From IMG/VR virus record IMGVR_UViG_3300048691_000224: 64,000 nucleotides of DNA. One strand, given 5' to 3'. The notes below the pieces were generated by a model. The model ran no database searches. It had not been told where the DNA came from and was given only the letters and a program-made list of their open reading frames with translations. Positions 2,822-56,384 of this stretch are shown in pieces. Each line of letters starts with the position of its first letter. The stretch's first letter is position 1. The translations under genes were made by a program, and so were the position numbers. The stretch comes from a virus (Duplodnaviria; Caudoviricetes).

Positions 2822-4048
2822 TCATGTTGTTTTATAAAAATCTATAAAACTAACTAAACGCTTCAACGAAGATGCCTTTGGTATTTCTACCGAAGGTCTT
2901 AATTCCTCTCGACGTTTGTAATCGGTCAATTCTTCCGATGAAAACCCATAAAGATCGTCAAGACCTTTATTTAAAATATTAACCGCAGCGTTTAAGTCTC
3001 TATCATGATTTGTTCCACAAGAACTACAAACCCAATCTCTTATGTGTAAACCCATATCAGTTTCTTTATGACCGCAATTAGAACACGTCTTTGAAGATGG
3101 ATACCAACGATCAATTTTCTGAAAGGACCTACCATACCAGTTCGACTTATATGCAATCATAGAAACTAGAGTCGACCAAGAAGCGTCAGAAATTGACTTC
3201 GCTAATTTTCGATTCTTAACCATCCCTTTGATATTCAAATCTTCCATGCATATGGTGTCATAATTATTAACTAACCACGTGGATAAGTTTTGATAAACCC
3301 AGTTTCTTTGATTAGATAATTTAAGATAAGACCTTGCAACTTTTAATCGTTGCTTCTCATACCTAGAACTGCCATTCACCTTTCGACTTAAATGCTGCTG
3401 TTCTCGTTTTAGTTTAGATTGGTTTTCTCTAAACCATCTTGGATTTTCAATCTTCATACCATTACTCATGATGCAAAGATGTGTAAGGCCCAAGTCAATA
3501 CCGATTGAGCGACCGGTATTTTGTTTCAACTCTATAGTTTCTTCAACTAGAATTGAAGCAAAATATTGGTTTGCTTTATTTTTAGAAATTGTTACATTCT
3601 TTACAGCGCCGGAAAACTTCCTATCTATAGACATTTTGATTGGCGTCATCTTAGGAATTTTAATCCTTGAAGTCTCAAAATTTACTTGAGAATTTGAAAA
3701 TTTCTGACCCGGAATACGAAAAGAGTCTATAGAAACTCCACGTTTCTTAAACTTCATTCTGCCCAGTTTAGACTTACGAGTTTTGGAAAAGAATTGACTT
3801 TTAGTTTCTTCAAAATCCATACGTTTTTGTTGGAGTGCGTATGAAATCGAATCGTTTAACCAACTAAACTCAGGTGTATCTTTTAAGGTTTTCTCACTCA
3901 TGGGTCGGTTAGGCCCTTCTTTTGAGAATGAGTTGAAGTTTGCAACTAACTGGTTCCACACAAAACGCACAGAACCGAAGACTTCAGAAAGATACTTTTC
4001 TTGAGTCTTAGTTGGATAAATTCTGTACTTATACGATTTTAGTTGCAT
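2822..4048 (-). mobile_element. tnpB: IS200/IS605-family TnpB RNA-guided endonuclease, no adjacent tnpA
   Basis: N-terminal YKYRIYPT HTH; RuvC motifs IGIDLG, MEDL and DRDLNAA with all three acidic residues present; CSNCG/CSSCG zinc ribbon. Confidence 0.92.
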
Positions 4049-16180: not shown

Positions 16181-16505
16181 CTAGTTGTTGGGTGATAAGG
16201 TAACCAGCCTCAGCGTGTTGTCGGTGTTTAGGCGACTAACGCAAATAATTCATCGTTGTGAGTTATTATTTGTTTGCCAGATTTAACGACGTTCGTGCGT
16301 GTCGGATTGTAATTAAATTCTATTCTCTGTCAGTCGATTCTAGATCGCCCCCATCAAAAACACTATACTCGCACTGGACATAATGTTTTTGGTGGAGGCG
16401 TCGGGATTTGCACCCGATTGTTGCCAGTTTTACCAATTTAGGTTTCCAGAGTTTCTAGCCCGAGGCGGATTAGAGTACCGCACCCTTCGGAAGCTCATCA
16501 CAATC
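16181..16505 (-). ncRNA. ssrA: Circularly permuted (two-piece) tmRNA
   Basis: T-arm plus CGCCTCC-A-CCA (ends 16390) lies upstream of the 5' strand GGGGGCGATCTAGAATCGAC (starts 16352). The strands form a 7-bp acceptor stem with G3.U70. Tag frame ends ...HNDELFALVA* at 16228. Confidence 0.9.
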
Positions 16506-25313: not shown

Positions 25314-26456
25314 TTATTCGACTGAATCCTCAATAGTCTCAGTTGCCCATGCTGGTTTATATTCAGAATACCGCTTGATTAAAAATTGTGGATAGTCCAC
25401 AATCCGTCCCAAGTAGGTATTCATCATCAATTGCATCAGGTCAGGATGTTCGCACTGTGCCTTGATTGCATAGTCCTTGCGCTCTAGTAGCTTGTTTTCA
25501 GCATAAAATTTACTGACTTGAGACTCAATCGAATTAAGAATTGGGAACACGTGATTCTCCATTGCTGTGATTCGATCTTGGACGTACTTGTCATCACCGA
25601 AGATACTGCGAATATCGTCCGTCCCCTGGACCGCGGCTAGTTCAAATAGTGCGCGGGGGCTGTTGACATTATCCTTCTGCTTATGCAACAGAACGTATTT
25701 GTCAGCCTTACACTTCACTAGGTACCGTACCCCTGTCGTAGGGTTGTGCATCTCGACTACACAACCTTCACCTTCTTGCAATTGCTTGCAATACTCATTG
25801 AATTCTGATGGGATCATTTCTGGAAACCCGTGAGAGACTAGGTACTCACTCGGGACAGTAACACCAGTAACTTGTGCTATTTGTGCTGGGAGAATATACT
25901 CCCCTGTTGCCAAACTCCGGATGCCCAAAATTCGCAATTGTGGGATTTGATATCCCACAACGATTCGATTGTGTGGTGCGGTGTACTCCAGACTGACTGT
26001 GTAACCAGATAACTCCAGCATTTTTAGCGCGATCCGCAGTTCTTCGTGGTATGAGATGTAATATGCTGCGTCGCCTGACTGATCAGAATACACCGAACCC
26101 TTAGACTTAACATGTAGATTGCCGTTGACCAACATTGTGCTAATTAGTGATCCATCTAGTTTTTCCATTGCACTCGAAATAACACACTCATCGTGGTCCA
26201 CCCCACCTTCGGCAAAATTAAAGAATTTTTGAGGTGGGAGAGAAATCAACTGAGGGTTGCCTGTGATGTCATATGTCGTGCCACGACAGTCAAGTGCACC
26301 TGGCTTCTGGAATTCTGTCCACGACGCGAGGCGGTAGTTGAAAATTCGAAGGACTCTCCCCAGATATTCAAAATCTTTGAAGTAAAAAGTATCACCTTCA
26401 CTGCATAGAGCCATAAGGTCTGTATACAATGTATTAGCATTGAACTTAGTTGACAT
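25314..26456 (-). CDS. rnlA: RNA ligase 1 (T4 RnlA/gp63 family)
   Basis: PPQKFFN, MEKLDGSLI, VKSKGS, EGCVV and LVKCK motifs. Confidence 0.9.
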   Translation of the reverse strand: MSTKFNANTLYTDLMALCSEGDTFYFKDFEYLGRVLRIFNYRLASWTEFQKPGALDCRGTTYDITGNPQLISLPPQKFFNFAEGGVDHDECVISSAMEKLDGSLISTMLVNGNLHVKSKGSVYSDQSGDAAYYISYHEELRIALKMLELSGYTVSLEYTAPHNRIVVGYQIPQLRILGIRSLATGEYILPAQIAQVTGVTVPSEYLVSHGFPEMIPSEFNEYCKQLQEGEGCVVEMHNPTTGVRYLVKCKADKYVLLHKQKDNVNSPRALFELAAVQGTDDIRSIFGDDKYVQDRITAMENHVFPILNSIESQVSKFYAENKLLERKDYAIKAQCEHPDLMQLMMNTYLGRIVDYPQFLIKRYSEYKPAWATETIEDSVE

Positions 26457-45606: not shown

Positions 45607-47181
45607 TTAATCTACATCCAACACGATGTCCATCAATCGGATAGGTTCTTCGCGATCACCACAAGAACCTTTGTGTGCAATGTAAACATCCACACCCCCA
45701 TACATGGTATATTCGCCACCTTTGTAACCGAAGAATTTCTTATCGAGCGCTTCATTCACCAACATTGACAAAAACTCACCAGCTGTAAATTTGTCGTTGG
45801 CCGGTTCGATAGCCAACTCACAATAGTATCCGCGATAGCTGTGCGGATTTACAAATTTCTTTACTGGTTCATCAGACGGCATCGACCTCAAATGTTTGAT
45901 TAACTCACTGAGAGTCAAACATTTTTCGAATGTTTCTTGCAAGTTTTTGAGTGCTTGGTATTGTGTATTGAGATGCATTTTTGTATTTCCTTGTGTTTTG
46001 TTAGCAGATGAGTCAATTATACCCTAATTCGACACCAAGTCAACAATTATTTTCTAAAATTGTTTAATTCTTCTTCAATCTGCCACTCAAATTCATTTAG
46101 CTTGCGGCTGAGGGCATCCAGTCTGGAAGAGGAAACCACCTCTTTGGCTCGTTCCAGCACTGCTCGCTCACTCGCAACATCAAACTGCATCAATATATCA
46201 TGCAGTGCATCCAAGAAGTCTACACTCTCACCGTTGATTGTTAGTTCAACATCAACTGTGGTATTACCAACACCCAATCCAAATTTGTTGAACATTTCGG
46301 CGCCATATTTTTTTTGCGAGAGTGTTGATTATGAAAACTGATGGAGTGTCGTGACCACCTAATTCGATCTTAGCCATTTTGAATTTCCTTAAAGGTACGT
46401 TACCTGCGCTCAGCTTGTCAAAACAATACAGTGATATTAGGCATTTTGCCAGTAACTTCTAAAATATCAAGCGCTCGCGATCCTGCGTAAATTGCTTCAT
46501 CTTCATTCTCAAACAATGGAGCCGACTCGACGGTATTGAGGATATATTCATCCCCAGGAGTACCACCGTAAGTAACAAAACTGATGCTGAACTTGTCAGA
46601 TGTGCTGTGATAGTTAACAATGTCGAGTTGAGTGCGCATTTTCAAGATCCTTATTTAAATTTGATTGATGAGTCAATTATACCCTAATTTCACATTAGGT
46701 CAACAGAGATCGCCGAATTATTACTTCACAAGGAGGTGTCAGTGAGACGAAATTTTTCTTTGAGCTCGAGGTATAATTTATACTCTGGATCACTCTGTAG
46801 CTTCAGGTATTGTGCAATTTCACCAACTTGTGTGGGTGTTTCTGGTGTAGTTCCCAATACAGAATACCGGGCTCTCAGAACTTCACCAACGGTATACTTT
46901 GGTTCGCCCAGCACTTTAGTTGAGTCGTCAACTAATTTTATTTCTCTCCATACAATATCATGTATGGCGCAACGATGATCACCGGATTTATCAGTATTTG
47001 GGCAAACGTTATCTGATATAAATGCACACCCGACACAGCTTTGCTGGCTGGACTGGACTGGCTCTGATTCGTATTTCTTGCCTTTTAATTCCAAAATCAT
47101 TTTGAAGTTCCTAGTATTCTGATTGCTCTTGGGGTCTATTATACCTAGTTTTCTGATAAGGTCAACAAAATAAGTGTACAA
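45607..47181 (-). other. Four hypothetical ORFs (45607-45978, 46047-46295, 46418-46645, 46726-47181)
   Basis: ORF track; early promoters at about 46010, 46667 and 47126. Confidence 0.6.
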
Positions 47182-49541: not shown

Positions 49542-49617
49542 TGGCTGACCAGGTTGGTTTCGAACCAACAACCTTCGGTTTTGGAGACCGACGCTCTGCC
49601 AATTGAGCTACTGATCA
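49542..49617 (-). tRNA. tRNA-Trp(CCA)
   Basis: Cloverleaf, CCA anticodon, G73. Confidence 0.92.
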
Positions 49618-49626
49618 AAAAATTAC

Positions 49627-49703
49627 TGGTGGCATCACGTGAGGACTCTTACCCCAGAGTGTGTTATGAAGAACACACCAACAAACGATACACCATGCCA
49701 CCA
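49627..49703 (-). ncRNA. tRNA-like RNA, family copy 1
   Basis: 8-bp closing stem, 6-bp anticodon-like stem, T-arm-like TGGGG-TAAGAGT-CCTCA, 3' CCA. Confidence 0.6.
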
Positions 49704-49747
49704 CGATGCATTCTGTTTACTATTTCGGTTAATTACGCCGACTAATT

Positions 49748-49823
49748 TGGTTGCGGATGGAACGATTTGAACGCCTCCTTGAGGTTATGAGCCTCATGTG
49801 CTGCCGGATTACACTACACCGCG
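49748..49823 (-). tRNA. tRNA-Met(CAT), fMet-like (C1:A72) with an imperfect acceptor stem
   Basis: CGCGGTG 5' end; TGAGG-CTCATAA-CCTCA; CCA; its 5' end overlaps the HNH stop codon. Confidence 0.75.
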
Positions 49824-50632
49824 ATAACTTTTAATTTACTTACAGATTTCCGTAGAAAATAACCCGTTGGTGGTTTTGTTAATTCCCACTTTTTTACCCA
49901 ACGATTCACGCCATTGTCTGACATATTATACTTTTTACCAATTTTTGTTAACGGTATCTTCCACAATAATTCTTGCAATTCCTCTTTTGTAAAGTTTGCT
50001 TTTATAGGTTGTGGAATATATGGCGGCTTCTTTGCAACTGGTGAGTTCAATTGGGTTTTATTTCTACCAGCAAATGTGGTGGTTTGACTATGACAATTCG
50101 GACATAAGAAGCACAAATTTTCTAATCTGTGATCAGTTCGTACTCCATTCTTGTGTTCTAGTTGTAAAGTAATGGGAGTACCTTGCCAAATTGGCCCCAT
50201 ATCACAATTTACACATTTGTATTGTAGAACACCTTCCTTAATCAAACGCTTTTTCAAAGACGAACGGTCATAATTCGTGGATTCTATTAATATTTCTGAC
50301 AGTGGGCGGCCGGTAGATCCATTTCTTGTCTGAGGTCTATTTAAGTGAGGATCGAAATGTGAAATATCTATCCCATACTTCGCAACATATTTCCTAAATG
50401 TAACAGCATTTGATGCAGGAGTAAGCCCCAGCTGTCTTAATACTTCACTCATTGAGACCGATTTTTTAATCAACTCCTCCAACATTTGGCGATTATGCCA
50501 ATCTACTTTAAAACTACCTCTTTTTATATTGACCATACTATAGATTTGTCATCTGCTTGTCTATTTATGATGGCCAGCGAGATGGTTAGTTGGTGGGCTC
50601 ATGTGCTGCCGGATTACACTACACCGCGATAA
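49793..50632. repeat. 35-bp perfect direct repeat (49793-49827 and 50598-50632) matching the 5' half of tRNA-Met
   Basis: ctcatgtgctgccggattacactacaccgcgataa occurs twice. Confidence 0.95.
49814..50536 (-). CDS. HNH homing endonuclease
   Basis: YKCVNC...LQLEHKNG..DHRLENLCFLCPNCHSQT; flanked by a 35-bp direct repeat. Confidence 0.92.
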   Translation of the reverse strand: MVNIKRGSFKVDWHNRQMLEELIKKSVSMSEVLRQLGLTPASNAVTFRKYVAKYGIDISHFDPHLNRPQTRNGSTGRPLSEILIESTNYDRSSLKKRLIKEGVLQYKCVNCDMGPIWQGTPITLQLEHKNGVRTDHRLENLCFLCPNCHSQTTTFAGRNKTQLNSPVAKKPPYIPQPIKANFTKEELQELLWKIPLTKIGKKYNMSDNGVNRWVKKWELTKPPTGYFLRKSVSKLKVIAV

Positions 50633-50637
50633 ATTTC

Positions 50638-50727
50638 TGGGTCCATTCTGTGAGGACTCTTACCTCAGATTTTCTTCTACCCTTTCGAGGCAGACACTGT
50701 ATACACAGTAAGAATGACCATAGACCC
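50638..50727 (-). ncRNA. tRNA-like RNA, family copy 2
   Basis: GGGTCTAT/ATGGACCC stem; TCTGCC-TCGAAAG-GGTAGA arm; TGAGG-TAAGAGT-CCTCA arm. Confidence 0.6.
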
Positions 50728-50934
50728 GAGATCATTTCTGTTTACTTCTACACCACGTCTGATGTACTAATTTTGGTTTTAGTTGCTACTGAGCTATATG
50801 CCAATAATATTTGTGAGGCTGTGCGAGCTCATCTGCACACTTGGGCTTTTTGTCTTCTCGTTCCAGCTGGCTCTTACGACTGTAGCGTCACCTCAAAAAA
50901 TGGTGCTCCCTCACTCAATCAGGAATACACAAAG

Positions 50935-52233: not shown

Positions 52234-52307
52234 TACAGCTACAGAGAATTGAACTCTGATTACTGGTGATGAGAACCCCAGCGTCCTAGACGTTAGACGA
52301 TAGCTGC
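52234..52307 (-). tRNA. tRNA-Glu(CTC)-like, slightly atypical, no encoded CCA
   Basis: GCAGCTA/TAGCTGT acceptor; CTGGGG-TTCTCAT-CACCAG; CAGAG-TTCAATT-CTCTG. Confidence 0.7.
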
Positions 52308-52344
52308 ATTTATTTTTCGGCTCTTGCTAACCGATCGATTCATC

Positions 52345-52571: not shown

Positions 52572-52623
52572 ATTTATTTTTGTGGCTCCTTAGACAGGCA
52601 TCTCGAACCTGTATATTACGGCT

Positions 52624-52699: not shown

Positions 52700-53530
52700 A
52701 ACTAATTAGATCTAAGTGTGCTCCTGTTACAAACTGCCGGTGAGGCCTGGCGTAGTGCACACTTAGATCTAATTACTCAGGGTTGAGAGACACAAATTGT
52801 ATTAACGGGAGGAATGAGGCATCAGCGACCACTCATATTACCAACTCACAAATTAATACAAAGCATTTCACGCCCTGAGTAATAAGATATTATTTCACAC
52901 CTATTTGTTAATGATCATTTTTGCTACAGAATTCGATGATTCTGAGTGCACATATAATTGAAAAGAGCCTTGTAAATTACTTGGCTCTTTTTGTGTTTGT
53001 TATAATTCTTATTATTCTGAGGGATCAAATTCTTTTTCGATCTCCATAATTTCGATTATCACATACACAGGGAGCTTTACAATCCGCCGGCGTCCAATAA
53101 TTGGCTTCCGTCTGGCAATGTTCACTTCCTGTATTATACGAATTCAAAATCATTTCTTGATCTCTTTATTTGCTATCTGTCTATTATATATGCTTTATTT
53201 ATATAAGTCAACAATTATTTTACCAAAATTTTAAAAATATTTTCAAATCAAAGTTTAGAAAGGACTTGAACCTCCCATCCAATAGGATAGCAATTGAACG
53301 CCGCCCCGACTGCTCTACCAATGAGCTATAAAATTTGATTTGAAAATATTTTAGATTTTCTAACTACTTAGACCCCATTATCAACATTTATTTGAACAGG
53401 TCAACAATTATTTTTCAACTTGAAAAATAAATTTAGAAAGAGCGGGTAAAGGGAGATCGAACCCTAACAACTTAGTGGATTTCTCGATAGGTAATATTAC
53501 CTCCTATCGCGGCACAGATCCTCAATACTA
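52700..53530 (-). ncRNA. ORF-free island of structured ncRNA candidates with internal early promoters
   Basis: Two 19-bp perfect inverted repeats, tRNA-derived D/T arms, promoters at about 53180-53210 and 53370-53403. Confidence 0.55.
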
Positions 53531-53531
53531 A

Positions 53532-55187
53532 TTAGGAGTCTACTAATCTATGCCCGCACGAAGTTGGCTGCCTTGCAACCACTCTTTCTGAATTTATTTT
53601 ATACAAGAATTGCACTAAAAACTGAACACAGTACTCGGTTGGATTTGCACCAACTACCACCTGATGGTTACAGGTCGTACTATTCTCATGGGCTTTATAG
53701 CTAATATTTCCCACTACCTTTGTACTAGCTCTACTATTTAAGCTATCGTTACACTGTTCAGATTTTAATGTAATCCTCACTTGATATCCATTATCAATGA
53801 AGTTTCAAACAAGTCAACAATTATTTAATTTACTTTCTGGCCGGTGCTGGAATTGATGCACAAAAATCGGCTGGTATTAGAGTCTCCAATTTTACTAGCC
53901 ACAAGCAATGTGGTGCTTGCATTTTTGCAAGCAAGTTCTGATGCATAATTACCTAACACAGCTGGTGCAGCTAATGGATTGTGGAATGATGCTGCAATGT
54001 AAATTAGTGTGTATACGGTCGCCATTTTGAATTTCCTTTATTAAACTTGCTCTTAGGGTCTATTATACCCCAAATCGGAGTAAGGTCAACAAGTAATTCA
54101 AGTTTTTATGGTTTTAATCAAAAAAAGTTCAGATATCGTGGTAATCCCAGTTTTCAATACATGAACCATATGATTCGATAAAATTATTGTAGGCAGCTTC
54201 CGTCGAGGCTTCTACCAACGATTCTAAATCTCCAACCACTTTACCGTACACTAGGTGTGATGCTTCAAAGTGGTTCACCCACTTGTAATAGTCTTCATGA
54301 ACTTCCGCGACCACTGTCCATCCAGACACTTCATCATATCCAATACAAACTGGATTAAGCGTAATTGCTTCTGTTCTTCTTTGCACACACGAGTTAACTT
54401 TAAATGGTAACTCGTCAACGGTAGGGACAATTGGTCTGTTCAAAAACTCGGTTAATGCTTGATTATTCATCATTGATTCCTTCGGAGTACAATCTATCTG
54501 CCTCATCGCACGGGTCTTCGTCGAGTGGATTAGTATCAATCATGATGTGCCCGATGTGAATTTTACCATCTTCAGTTGCACAGCACGGGTCACCAATGAA
54601 GTGTTGGCCAGCGAGTAGCGTTACTTTATTTTTCATGTCAAACTTTCAGTTACAAAACCGTTGATGCGTCGATACAATTGTTGTCTGATTCCAAAAACCA
54701 GTGTGCGTCAATTAGTACCCCATTCACAGGAACTCGACTAAGTTTTGTTGAGCTATACAGATTGATATTAATATAATGTCTCCAGAAGTCACCACAATCG
54801 AGGTATGCTTGTGGTGACCTTGTTATCTCACAAGCATACCGATATGCTGCACCGACAATAGGTGGTGAACGGTGTACAATATTCCGATACTTGCGCAGTA
54901 CGTCTGGGTGAGCAGTGTATTTAAACATTATTTTGATCTACTCACATCCAATGGTCATCTACCGACCCAAACGCCAGACTGTCGGTTTGCTGAAGTTCGA
55001 CGAGTGCACACTTAACCACATATCGACCGTGTTGTTCGTCTTGTGTTAGATCAGGGTCTTTCAAGAAATATTCTACGGCGGCACCTTCTATGAAATCCTG
55101 CAACTCTCCATCCAGAACATATCGTTCCTGTAGATGTGGCATCACATATTTCATCGATGTTACTAATAGTTTCTTTGAATATTTCAT
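53532..55187 (-). other. Small hypothetical ORFs (53825-54025, 54129-54539, 54650-54928, 54942-55187; 53532-53780 doubtful)
   Basis: ORF track; early promoters. Confidence 0.5.
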
Positions 55188-55254
55188 TATAGGCTTTCTA
55201 TCGTATATTGCTCTTAGGGTCTATTATACCCTAATTCACATCAATGGGCAACAG

Positions 55255-55896
55255 TTATTTTGAACTTATTTTTCCGTTTGGACTAGCATTTTTGAGCCAG
55301 TGTTGATCTGTCTGCACGTGTCCAGCCCTGACGTACTTTGTGACACAAGAGCTGAAGTTCTCGTAATTGAATGCGCGTGTCGCCCTCACAACAAAACCTT
55401 CCTCAATCGCAGTATCAAGATTTGCCGCGAGTTCCTTGAGTGCACTCTCATCATATACACCTCTATACAGTTGTTTTGGTGTTGGGAGGGAAAATAGTTC
55501 AGCATACATCAGCGTGTCGTCGTATGACAGGCAAGTGTCATCATTCCACACAGACAGCAAATATAGGTACCCCTCCAGGTAACCATCTGGATAGTGGATC
55601 GAATGTTTGGCATATACATTCTCACAACACAGCCTGTGACCGGTTGGTATATCGTGTGCAATTTGTGAGTGAATTTTCTTAGCAATGTCACGAGTCCAAT
55701 TAGACACCGAGTCGATCGAACGTGCGTGGAGATACCCATCTGGGTACAGCGTGGTGTTTTCACCATCCATTTTCAGCGTCACGACAACTTCAGATCCGAT
55801 CAGATCCTCCATAGATTGGATGACCTTGTCGTCTGATTGGAGGCCTGGGGAGAATGGTAGGTGGTACGTTCGAGGGTATTTTGTTCTAGAGGTCAT
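55255..55896 (-). CDS. RNA ligase family protein (KYPRT type)
   Basis: KYPRTYHLP, KMDGEN, HARS, EEGFVVR and KYVR motifs. Confidence 0.88.
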   Translation of the reverse strand: MTSRTKYPRTYHLPFSPGLQSDDKVIQSMEDLIGSEVVVTLKMDGENTTLYPDGYLHARSIDSVSNWTRDIAKKIHSQIAHDIPTGHRLCCENVYAKHSIHYPDGYLEGYLYLLSVWNDDTCLSYDDTLMYAELFSLPTPKQLYRGVYDESALKELAANLDTAIEEGFVVRATRAFNYENFSSCVTKYVRAGHVQTDQHWLKNASPNGKISSK

Positions 55897-56303: not shown

Positions 56304-56384
56304 CTTATTTTGTTAGATGATTCAATTATACCCCAATTTCAGATCAGGTCAACGCACACCGTGCTTCGTGGCTGACACCACAAT

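What the first reader, a model, noticed from the sequence alone, without database searches (positions are those of the whole stretch)
49627..50727. Two-copy family of tRNA-like RNAs with a TAAGAGT T-loop
Seen: 49627-49703 and 50638-50727 share a 20-mer with one mismatch (T-arm TGRGG-TAAGAGT-CCTCA). Both have an 8-bp closing stem ending AT followed by GGT, a 4-nt spacer between T-arm and closing stem, and a 6-bp anticodon-like stem with loops TC-TTCA-TA and TC-GAA-AG. The closing stems differ in sequence but keep pairing. Inference: an undescribed tRNA-mimic family that could act as nuclease decoys, synthetase/T-box ligands or non-canonical decoders. No canonical tRNA-Phe is seen in this window.
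Basis: partly seen in the sequence, partly recalled or inferred. Interest (0 to 1): 0.72.

Follow-up and report, generated by a model that had tools for sequence, protein, structure and literature searches.

The report
Phage tRNA-array pseudoknot RNA with T-loop
The two look-alike elements are real copies of a previously uncatalogued, phage-specific structured RNA that sits among phage tRNA genes and copies only the acceptor/T-arm half of a tRNA, so it is almost certainly not a decoding tRNA.

Summary
Both elements lie on the minus strand, the strand of all 22 tRNA genes of the array, and share the hairpin UGRGG-UAAGAGU-CCUCA inside an 8-bp closing stem. ARAGORN does not call them and Rfam 15 has no match even at E<=10.

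They are larger than reported, about 120-135 nt. Each has a 5' hairpin (P1), a purine motif AGUAAACA, an H-type pseudoknot (S1 crossing closing stem S2), 1-2 variable hairpins, the T-loop hairpin, S2's 3' strand and an AAAUUUA tail before the next tRNA.

The hairpin motif recurs in more than 30 IMG/VR phage contigs and in cultured Pseudomonas phage NoPa. Near tRNAs it is always on their strand and usually 14-31 nt upstream of one. Only one true copy turned up in 185,579 species genomes.

On 12 diverse members 95% of proposed pairs form, against 39-46% in slid controls. Compensatory changes occur in 7/8 S2, 5/7 S1 and 4/4 P1 pairs.

The 'anticodon' hairpins are not conserved. B's GAA lies in a CGAAA loop shared by its subgroup, and the elements lack the CCA that the arrays' real tRNAs encode.

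Verdict: a new tRNA-derived, non-decoding RNA family. Its function is unknown. It is probably excised by tRNA-processing RNases.

The parts
49616..49741 (-). Element A, whole unit (P1 to AU-rich tail); tRNA-CAT ends a few nt upstream, tRNA-Trp starts at 49617
   Evidence: CM R1 29.2 bits E 2.5e-4; R2 92.9 bits; coordinates
49725..49741 (-). A: P1 hairpin UCGG-9 nt-CCGA
   Evidence: P1 pairs 100% paired, 4/4 with compensatory changes in 12 members
49711..49724 (-). A: J1 purine motif containing AGUAAACA
   Evidence: Exact 11-mer shared with B; consensus AGNARACA across members
49705..49710 (-). A: S1a (UGCAUC), 5' strand of pseudoknot helix S1
   Evidence: Pairs with 49689-49694; S1 90.7% paired, 5/7 pairs compensatory, helix not used to build the CM
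49695..49702 (-). A: S2a (GGUGGCAU), 5' strand of closing/acceptor-like stem; preceded by 2-nt L1 (49703-49704)
   Evidence: S2 97.9% paired, 7/8 pairs compensatory; first base G in all 12
49689..49694 (-). A: S1b (GGUGUA), 3' strand of S1, directly abutting S2a
49658..49679 (-).
   Evidence: not conserved in the family
49640..49656 (-). A: T-loop hairpin UGGGG-UAAGAGU-CCUCA
   Evidence: Family hallmark; loop and two closing G-C pairs invariant
49628..49635 (-). A: S2b (AUGCCACC), after 4-nt spacer CGUG (49636-49639)
49618..49627 (-). A: A/U-rich 3' tail (AGUAAUUUUU) up to tRNA-Trp
   Evidence: Counterpart of the AAAUUUA tail in most members
50629..50766 (-). Element B, whole unit
   Evidence: CM R1 24.5 bits E 3.6e-3; R2 97 bits; coordinates
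50749..50766 (-). B: P1 hairpin UACA-10 nt-UGUA
50736..50748 (-). B: J1 with AGUAAACA
50730..50735 (-). B: S1a (AUGAUC)
   Evidence: Pairs with 50714-50719; three positions covary with A
50720..50727 (-). B: S2a (GGGUCUAU); L1 = UC (50728-50729)
50714..50719 (-). B: S1b (GGUCAU)
50696..50709 (-). B: hairpin H1, 5 bp with GUAU loop
   Evidence: Same GUAU-loop hairpin with compensatory stem changes in L090, L091, L116, L052
50676..50694 (-).
   Evidence: Same position and GAAA-containing loop in L089, L090, L091; MFE 7 bp + 5-nt loop
50651..50667 (-). B: T-loop hairpin UGAGG-UAAGAGU-CCUCA
   Evidence: third stem pair A-U here, G-U or G-C elsewhere
50639..50646 (-). B: S2b (AUGGACCC), after spacer CAGA (50647-50650)
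50629..50638 (-). B: tail AGAAAUUUAU, then a duplicated 5' half of tRNA-CAT

Best explanation
A and B are two paralogous genes of a phage-specific structured RNA family. They are co-transcribed with the tRNA array on the minus strand.

Shown:
- A conserved fold in this order: P1 hairpin, single-stranded AGUAAACA, H-type pseudoknot, 0-2 variable hairpins, an A-rich linker, an almost invariant T-loop-type hairpin (GG-UAAGAGU-CC), S2's 3' strand, and an AAAUUUA tail just before a tRNA gene.
- The pseudoknot is formed by S1 (4-7 bp), whose loop holds the 5' strand of the 8-bp closing stem S2. L1 is 2-4 nt.

Inferred:
- The RNA derives from a tRNA and keeps only the acceptor/T-arm half.
- It enters the tRNA maturation pathway. 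RNase P would cut in L1 before the invariant G that opens S2. RNase E and exonucleases would trim the AU-rich tail.
- This would yield a stable 75-90-nt (or about 125-nt) RNA that is neither aminoacylated nor used for decoding.
- It would act through its invariant T-loop and J1 surface as a mimic or ligand for a conserved tRNA-handling factor. The partner is not identified.
For: - Strand and context. All 21 ARAGORN tRNAs plus one Rfam-only tRNA are on the minus strand. Strong sigma70-like promoters lie only at 53.2-54.1 kb and 46.0-47.2 kb, so A and B sit inside one long transcript.
- Family. GRGGTAAGAGTCCTC and two composite patterns hit more than 30 IMG/VR contigs. Every hit within 1.5 kb of tRNAs is on the tRNA strand, with none opposite.
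- Position. 13 T hairpins, including A, lie 14-31 nt upstream of a tRNA gene. B sits about 19 nt upstream of a duplicated tRNA 5' half, and six of the later members do the same at 18-23 nt.
- Covariation on 12 diverse members. 95.3% of cells are paired against 39-46% when partners are slid. 61 cells carry double-sided changes against 2-9. 0/500 shuffles reach the observed score. S1 was not part of the CM, yet it is 90.7% paired with 5/7 compensatory pairs.
- Phage-specific. One true copy was found in 185,579 species genomes, on a phage-like contig.
- Not a tRNA. No ARAGORN call, no Rfam hit at E<=10, variable internal hairpins and no encoded CCA, while 18/21 to 35/35 of the array tRNAs have it.
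- Literature. RNase P can cleave H-type pseudoknots in loop 1 (PMC12710915 abstract).
Against: - There are no expression or end-mapping data. Processing by RNase P or RNase E is inferred only from G+1, the tail motif and tRNA-like geometry.
- A 0-6-nt spacer separates the T stem from S2, and S1 competes for stacking. The acceptor/T coaxial stack that RNase P and other enzymes measure may therefore not form.
- The bias for sitting directly upstream of a tRNA run favours a cis role over a trans mimic.
- A relative of this phage (L005, 60% aa identity in a neighbouring ORF) lacks the element within 10 kb. It is therefore accessory.
- No partner protein was identified.
Confidence: 0.5

Rival explanations
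1. It is a cis-acting leader of tRNA runs. The folded element would stay part of the precursor and control the expression or maturation of the tRNAs that follow. Possible modes are protecting the 5' side, guiding the order of RNase E/P cleavage, or making RNA polymerase resistant to Rho termination on a long untranslated array (put- or boxA-like).
For: - The T hairpin lies 14-31 nt upstream of a tRNA in most cases. It typically opens a tightly packed run after a 100-700-nt gap.
- The conserved tail AAAUUUA lies between element and tRNA.
- In L003, L027 and L010 a sigma70-like promoter lies 94-122 nt upstream of the T hairpin.
- One subgroup (L003b, L027) carries UGCUCUCUAAUUU after the hairpin. 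From my memory of the rrn boxA consensus this resembles boxA.
- A P1/J1-like module also precedes canonical tRNA-Glu(CUC) in this window.
Against: - Most members, including A and B, have no promoter within 400 nt.
- Only 2 of about 8 tRNA runs in this window carry the element.
- There is no terminator or expression platform.
- The boxA likeness is limited to one subgroup.
- Any tRNA would itself provide an RNase P site.
Confidence: 0.27
2. They are non-canonical decoding tRNAs: A as an opal or quadruplet (UUCA) reader and B as a tRNA-Phe substitute.
For: - The loops contain UCA and GAA.
- No tRNA-Phe is called in the window.
- 8-bp acceptor stems occur in tRNA-Sec and allo-tRNAs (PMC5389517).
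- ARAGORN draws one family member (L050) as a tRNA with an 8-bp acceptor stem and a long variable arm.
Against: - The internal hairpins vary in number, stem and loop size across the family.
- B's GAA belongs to a CGAAA loop conserved in its subgroup.
- C rather than U precedes both 'anticodons'.
- The T loop lacks U55-C56, and there is no D loop with GG.
- There is no encoded CCA, unlike the array's real tRNAs.
- The tRNA and tRNA-Sec models give no hit at E<=10.
- Long ORFs with clear family matches read normally under code 11.
Confidence: 0.03
3. They are decaying tRNA pseudogenes or scars of mobile-element activity in the array and have no function of their own.
For: - An HNH homing endonuclease gene (49814-50536) and a duplicated tRNA 5' half lie between B and A.
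- tRNA fragments occur nearby.
- The distribution among related phages is patchy.
Against: - Compensatory changes maintain three helices.
- The 11-nt loop core is invariant across very different phages. That is selection, not decay.
Confidence: 0.04
4. It is a DNA-level site. The invariant 15-18-mer would be a target for a homing endonuclease or recombinase that shuffles tRNA cassettes.
For: - The sequence is exactly conserved where its flanks diverge.
- Homing endonucleases are common in phage tRNA clusters: HNH here, and SegB in T4.
Against: - Strand specificity relative to the tRNAs is strict.
- G-U pairs in the T stem and S2 work only in RNA of the sense strand.
- The surrounding helices covary.
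- Most copies have no endonuclease gene beside them.
Confidence: 0.04

Closest known systems
Phage T4 species 1 and 2 RNAs (rnaC, rnaD)
   Same: Small RNAs annotated 'small, stable RNA' that are not tRNAs, encoded inside a phage tRNA cluster that also holds a homing endonuclease gene. That they are co-transcribed and processed with the tRNAs, and still have no known function, is from my own knowledge.
   Different: No sequence or structure match (R2 finds nothing in the T4 locus). rnaC has a canonical GGUUCGAAUCC T arm. They sit at the 3' end of the cluster, not upstream of tRNA runs.
tRNA-Sec and allo-tRNAs (8/5, 8/4, 9/3 acceptor/T arrangements; PMC5389517)
   Same: 8-bp acceptor-like stem plus a 5-bp T stem. 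Some members have compact D-like hairpins with 4-nt loops and 6-bp internal stems.
   Different: There is a spacer between the T stem and the acceptor stem, no conserved anticodon loop, a T loop of UAAGAGU, no CCA, and a 5' leader pseudoknot. No Rfam tRNA or tRNA-Sec hit.
Viral tRNA-like structures with a pseudoknotted acceptor arm (tymovirus TLS, RF00233)
   Same: A pseudoknot takes part in building the acceptor-like helix next to a T-arm-like hairpin, in a viral RNA that mimics part of a tRNA.
   Different: The topology is different: here the 5' strand of the closing stem lies in the loop of an upstream hairpin. There is no 3'-terminal CCA. This is a DNA phage gene inside a tRNA array, not the 3' end of an RNA genome. 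RF00233 gives no hit on A or B.
Bacterial and phage Y-RNA-like YrlA (RF02553) and other pseudo-tRNAs
   Same: Non-decoding RNAs with a tRNA-like module. That some are phage-encoded next to tRNAs is from my own knowledge.
   Different: From my own knowledge, YrlA keeps a canonical T loop and a Ro-binding stem. Its only Rfam match here is a sub-threshold one spanning two real tRNAs.
[quoted passage not shown]
   Same: Two conserved purine-rich pentaloop-like motifs. J1 AGUAA fits the AG..A pattern. The hexamer UAAGAG also occurs as a conserved hairpin loop in class A RNase P RNA.
   Different: The second motif must be UG..A, but here it is UAAGA (A at position 2). The RNase P UAAGAG loop is not part of its double T-loop module.

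Membership tests
tRNA (RF00005) | Detected by tRNA models (covariance model score at or above 29 bits; ARAGORN cloverleaf) | tested here: not met
   No ARAGORN call. No RF00005 match on A or B even at E<=10.
tRNA (RF00005) | T loop U54-U55-C56-R57-A58 and a D loop with G18 G19 | tested here: not met
   The loop is UAAGAGU: U54, R57 and A58 are kept, but positions 55-56 are AA. No D loop with GG. A has no D hairpin at all.
tRNA (RF00005) | Conserved 7-nt anticodon loop with U33 | tested here: not met
   Loops of 4-8 nt and 0-2 hairpins across members. A and B have C before the triplet.
tRNA (RF00005) | Acceptor stem closed by the 5' and 3' ends, G1, T stem of 5 bp | tested here: met
   S2 is 8 bp with G first in 12/12 and covaries. 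The T stem is 5 bp. However, a 0-6-nt spacer separates the two.
tRNA-Sec / allo-tRNA | 13- or 12-bp continuous acceptor+T branch, long variable arm, UCA or another anticodon in a 7-nt loop | tested here: not met
   8+5 bp, but interrupted by 4 nt in A and B. No long variable arm in A or B. UCA lies in a 6/8-nt loop. No RF01852 hit.
H-type pseudoknot | Hairpin whose loop pairs with a downstream strand; short L1; both helices supported by covariation | tested here: met
   S1 7 pairs (90.7% paired, 5 compensatory) and S2 8 pairs (97.9%, 7 compensatory). L1 is 2-4 nt and L2 is 0-2 nt.
Tymovirus-type TLS (RF00233) | Match to the model; 3' CCA; aminoacylatable end | tested here: not met
   No hit on A or B. 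No CCA in most members.
T4 rnaC / rnaD | Sequence or structure homology | tested here: not met
   R2 search of the T4 locus L067 found nothing. The sequences were read.
Double T-loop tRNA-elbow docking module | Two T loops with invariant AG..A and UG..A cores | tested here: not met
   J1 fits AG..A in most members, but the hairpin loop is UA..A.
Any Rfam 15 family | Gathering-score or sub-threshold match | tested here: not met

The most novel reading that the evidence does not exclude
The invariant T loop and AGNARACA strand, held by the pseudoknot, form a compact tertiary core with an activity of its own. Candidates are a new small ribozyme or ligand-sensing RNA, an RNA that binds RNA polymerase or RNase P, or one that docks pre-tRNAs. 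Any of these would let phages with large arrays control how their tRNA precursors are made. That would be a new class of regulatory RNA dedicated to viral tRNA supply.
Probability: 0.1. Interest if true: 0.85.

Novelty: new variant of a known kind. Interest (0 to 1): 0.62.

Why it matters
Large phages carry dozens of tRNA genes, and how these arrays are expressed, processed and defended is poorly understood. This work defines a conserved, covariation-supported RNA that travels with those arrays in many unrelated phages, including contigs of 200-430 kb. It is absent from Rfam and from cellular genomes. It gives a concrete object to test. One cultured carrier exists, Pseudomonas putida phage vB_PpuM-NoPa, which has two copies. 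The result also warns annotators that these loci are neither suppressor nor missing tRNAs.

Tried and rejected
- megablast and blastn of the region and of single elements against 50,697 phage records gave only tRNA-Trp hits, chance 19-mers, and one useful lead, phage NoPa.
- A metagenome scan with the 18-mer returned mostly duplicates of the IMG/VR loci and chance hits in coding DNA.
- A relative found through the neighbouring ORF (L005) lacks the element.
- RNAduplex with shuffles, used as an alignment-free test of S2, and a longest-helix test of S1 had low power. Individual p values were 0.004-0.9. I relied on column-wise covariation instead.
- An alternative 9-bp register in which the strand after S2a pairs with S2b is present in A and B but not in other members, so I dropped it.
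- I tested whether J1 GU pairs with T-loop AA as a G18G19/U55C56 analogue. J1 position 3 varies (U, A or C) while the loop stays constant, so there is no support.
- RNase P S-domain mimicry and a double T-loop: the defining UG..A is missing.
- A general promoter-proximal position was seen in 3 loci only.
- CCA reading of A (AUGCC-ACCA) and B (AUGGA-CCCA): this is not shared by other members and is probably a by-product of the GC-rich stem end.
- Literature searches for the motif, for tRNA-like RNAs in phage arrays and for phage NoPa found no description of this family.

Full report
CONTEXT. The window carries a phage-type tRNA array between about 47.2 and 58.7 kb. ARAGORN finds 21 tRNAs, all on the minus strand. 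Rfam adds a tRNA with a CAT anticodon at 49752-49822 and a permuted tmRNA at 16228-16448. No whole genome is held, and no near relative exists among 50,697 phage records. PHROG matches indicate a T4-like gene set: RIIA, RIIB, an Rnl1-type RNA ligase and a DnaB helicase. Strong sigma70-like promoters on the minus strand lie only at 53.2-54.1 kb and 46.0-47.2 kb. The array, including both elements, is therefore probably one long transcript.

THE OBSERVATION.
- The shared 20-mer with one mismatch.
- 8-bp closing stems that differ in sequence yet pair.
- GGU after the 5' strand of each stem.
- 4-nt spacers.
- Internal hairpins.
MFE folding recovers these. ARAGORN does not call the elements, and Rfam gives nothing on that strand even at E<=10. 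Aligning the two copies shows that the similarity continues upstream, with an exact AGUAAACAGAA, and downstream into an A/U-rich tail.

A WIDER FAMILY. Scanning IMG/VR with the 18-mer gave three loci, all inside phage tRNA arrays. Three relaxed patterns gave many more. With ARAGORN run on every locus, each hit within 1.5 kb of tRNA genes lies on the tRNA strand and none lies opposite. Hits with no tRNA nearby sit in what looks like coding DNA and are chance matches. Carriers include contigs of 200-430 kb. They also include the cultured Pseudomonas phage vB_PpuM-NoPa, which has two copies. A scan of one genome for each of 185,579 prokaryotic species with the 17-mer found nine chance hits and one true copy, on a 27.8-kb phage-like contig next to tRNA-Ser. 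The RNA is thus phage-specific and is not a copy of a host gene. A T hairpin lies 14-31 nt upstream of a tRNA gene in 13 cases, including element A. It usually opens a tightly spaced tRNA run that follows a gap of 100-700 nt (more cases).

ARCHITECTURE. Comparing members gives this order, 5' to 3':
1. P1 hairpin. Its loop is often AAAGCAAGAG.
2. A single strand with consensus AGNARACA.
3. S1a, then L1 (2-4 nt).
4. S2a, which always starts with G.
5. S1b, abutting S2a.
6. Zero to two variable hairpins.
7. An A-rich linker.
8. The T-loop hairpin.
9. A spacer of 0-6 nt.
10. S2b.
11. Usually A, then AAAUUUA, then the next tRNA.
S1 crosses S2, which makes an H-type pseudoknot. In A, S1 is UGCAUC/GGUGUA. 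In B it is AUGAUC/GGUCAU.

COVARIATION. A covariance model built from three sequences of other phages, with P1, S2 and the T stem only, found A at 29.2 bits (E 2.5e-4) and B at 24.5 bits. A second model built from seven members recovered further full-length members. The 12-member alignment gave these counts:
- 95.3% of cells form standard pairs, against 39-46% when partners are slid by 1-3 columns.
- 16 pairs and 61 cells carry changes on both sides, against 1-6 pairs and 2-9 cells in the slid controls.
- 0 of 500 shuffles reach the covariation score.
- S2 is 97.9% paired with 7/8 pairs compensatory.
- P1 is 100% paired with 4/4 compensatory.
- S1 is 90.7% paired with 5/7 compensatory.
The alignment was fitted to S2, P1 and the T stem, so counts for those helices lean towards them. 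S1 was never given to the model, which makes its support independent. The T stem hardly varies. Its third pair is G-U, G-C or A-U, and the loop plus two closing G-C pairs are invariant.

WHY IT IS NOT A DECODER. The internal hairpins differ in number and loop size between subgroups. B belongs to a subgroup (L089, L090, L091, L113, L116) with two hairpins. The first has a GUAU loop. In L089, L090 and L091 the second has a GAAA-containing loop at the position of B's CGAAA loop, so B's GAA is not an anticodon. A's UCA lies in a 6- or 8-nt loop. The T loop lacks U55-C56, and there is no GG D loop. Real tRNAs of these arrays nearly all encode CCA: 18/21 here, 28/29 in L024 and 35/35 in L033. The elements generally do not.

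MECHANISM (INFERRED). Several features suggest that the RNA is excised by the enzymes that mature the neighbouring tRNAs.
- S2 begins with an invariant G that pairs with C (G-U in 2 of 12).
- L1 is short and often ends in U.
- The base after S2b is commonly A.
- The tail fits the RNase E preference RN|WUU.
RNase P is known to cut pseudoknot substrates in loop 1 (PMC12710915). What the mature RNA does is open. Near-invariance of the loop and of J1 across very different phages points to recognition by a conserved factor or to a fixed tertiary core. I favour a processed, non-decoding tRNA mimic. A cis role for the downstream tRNA run is the main rival, because of the positional bias. A P1/J1-like module also precedes canonical tRNA-Glu(CUC) at 52307-52334. 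That 5' module may therefore be a separable leader signal.

COMPARISON AND NOVELTY. The nearest concept is T4 species 1 and 2 RNAs, but they share no sequence or fold with this family. The family also resembles tRNA-Sec and allo-tRNAs in stem lengths, and tymovirus TLS in using a pseudoknot, but it fails their defining features. The double T-loop module of RNase P, L1 stalk and T-box requires UG..A, which is absent here. No paper in the library mentions the motif. I rate it a new variant of a known kind: tRNA-like, non-decoding RNAs.

Noticed in passing
window 49814-50536 (-), 49793-49822 and 50598-50627: An HNH homing endonuclease gene (phrog_10822, E 2.9e-48) lies between B and A. The first 30 nt of the tRNA-CAT gene are duplicated upstream of it, and the ORF's stop overlaps the start of the intact copy. 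This looks like a homing insertion into the tRNA gene.
   Followed up: partly
window 49752-49822 (-): The tRNA with a CAT anticodon is found by Rfam only (37 bits). By eye its acceptor stem has about 4 good pairs and its T stem has G-U pairs. It may be a chimera or be decaying after the HNH insertion.
   Followed up: no
window 52307-52334 (-) and 52572-52600 (-): A P1-like hairpin (UCGG-UUAGCAAGAG-CCGA) followed by AAAAAUAAAUG directly precedes tRNA-Glu(CUC), which lacks an encoded CCA. The same AAAAAUAAAUG precedes tRNA-Glu(UUC). The P1 loop matches that of elements in other phages.
   Followed up: partly
window 50768-50934 (-): The gap upstream of B holds a tRNA 5'-half-like fragment (GGCAUAUAGCUCAGU...), a GUAAGAG motif and a GUGAGG/CCUCAC closing pair. 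It could be a third, degenerate element or a tRNA remnant.
   Followed up: no
window 16228-16448 (-): A permuted (two-piece) tmRNA gene (RF04321, 73.3 bits) is encoded by the phage. From my own knowledge, this gene arrangement is typical of alphaproteobacteria, cyanobacteria and some betaproteobacteria, so it hints at the host range.
   Followed up: partly
window 46007-46045, 46667-46705, 47138-47168, 53183-53211, 53377-53407, 53790-53817, 54053-54091, 55208-55237, 56316-56354 (-): A repeated promoter family on the minus strand, TTGAC(C/T)-N16/17-(GGG)TATAAT, with conserved flanks. These are probably early phage promoters that bracket the tRNA array.
   Followed up: partly
window 25314-26456 (-) and 55255-55896 (-): An Rnl1-type RNA ligase (phrog_562, E 9e-83) and a second ORF matching the C-terminal part of an RNA ligase family (phrog_24030, E 3.7e-62). 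These are RNA-repair genes in a phage with a large tRNA set.
   Followed up: no
window 2822-4048 (-): A 408-aa ORF matches the transposase family phrog_506 (E 4.9e-120). By size and family it looks like a TnpB/IS605-type gene. I did not look for an associated guide RNA.
   Followed up: no
L050 (reverse strand 1683-1779; IMGVR_UViG_3300031992_000002): ARAGORN draws one family member (T loop UUAGAGU) as a tRNA of unknown identity with an 8-bp acceptor stem, a long variable arm and a 6-nt anticodon loop. This supports descent of the family from class II tRNAs. The same 434-kb contig has four T-hairpin copies.
   Followed up: partly
L033 10341-10487: A member with T loop UACGAGU whose closing stem is followed by ACCA. 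It is the only copy seen with a canonical encoded 3' end.
   Followed up: no
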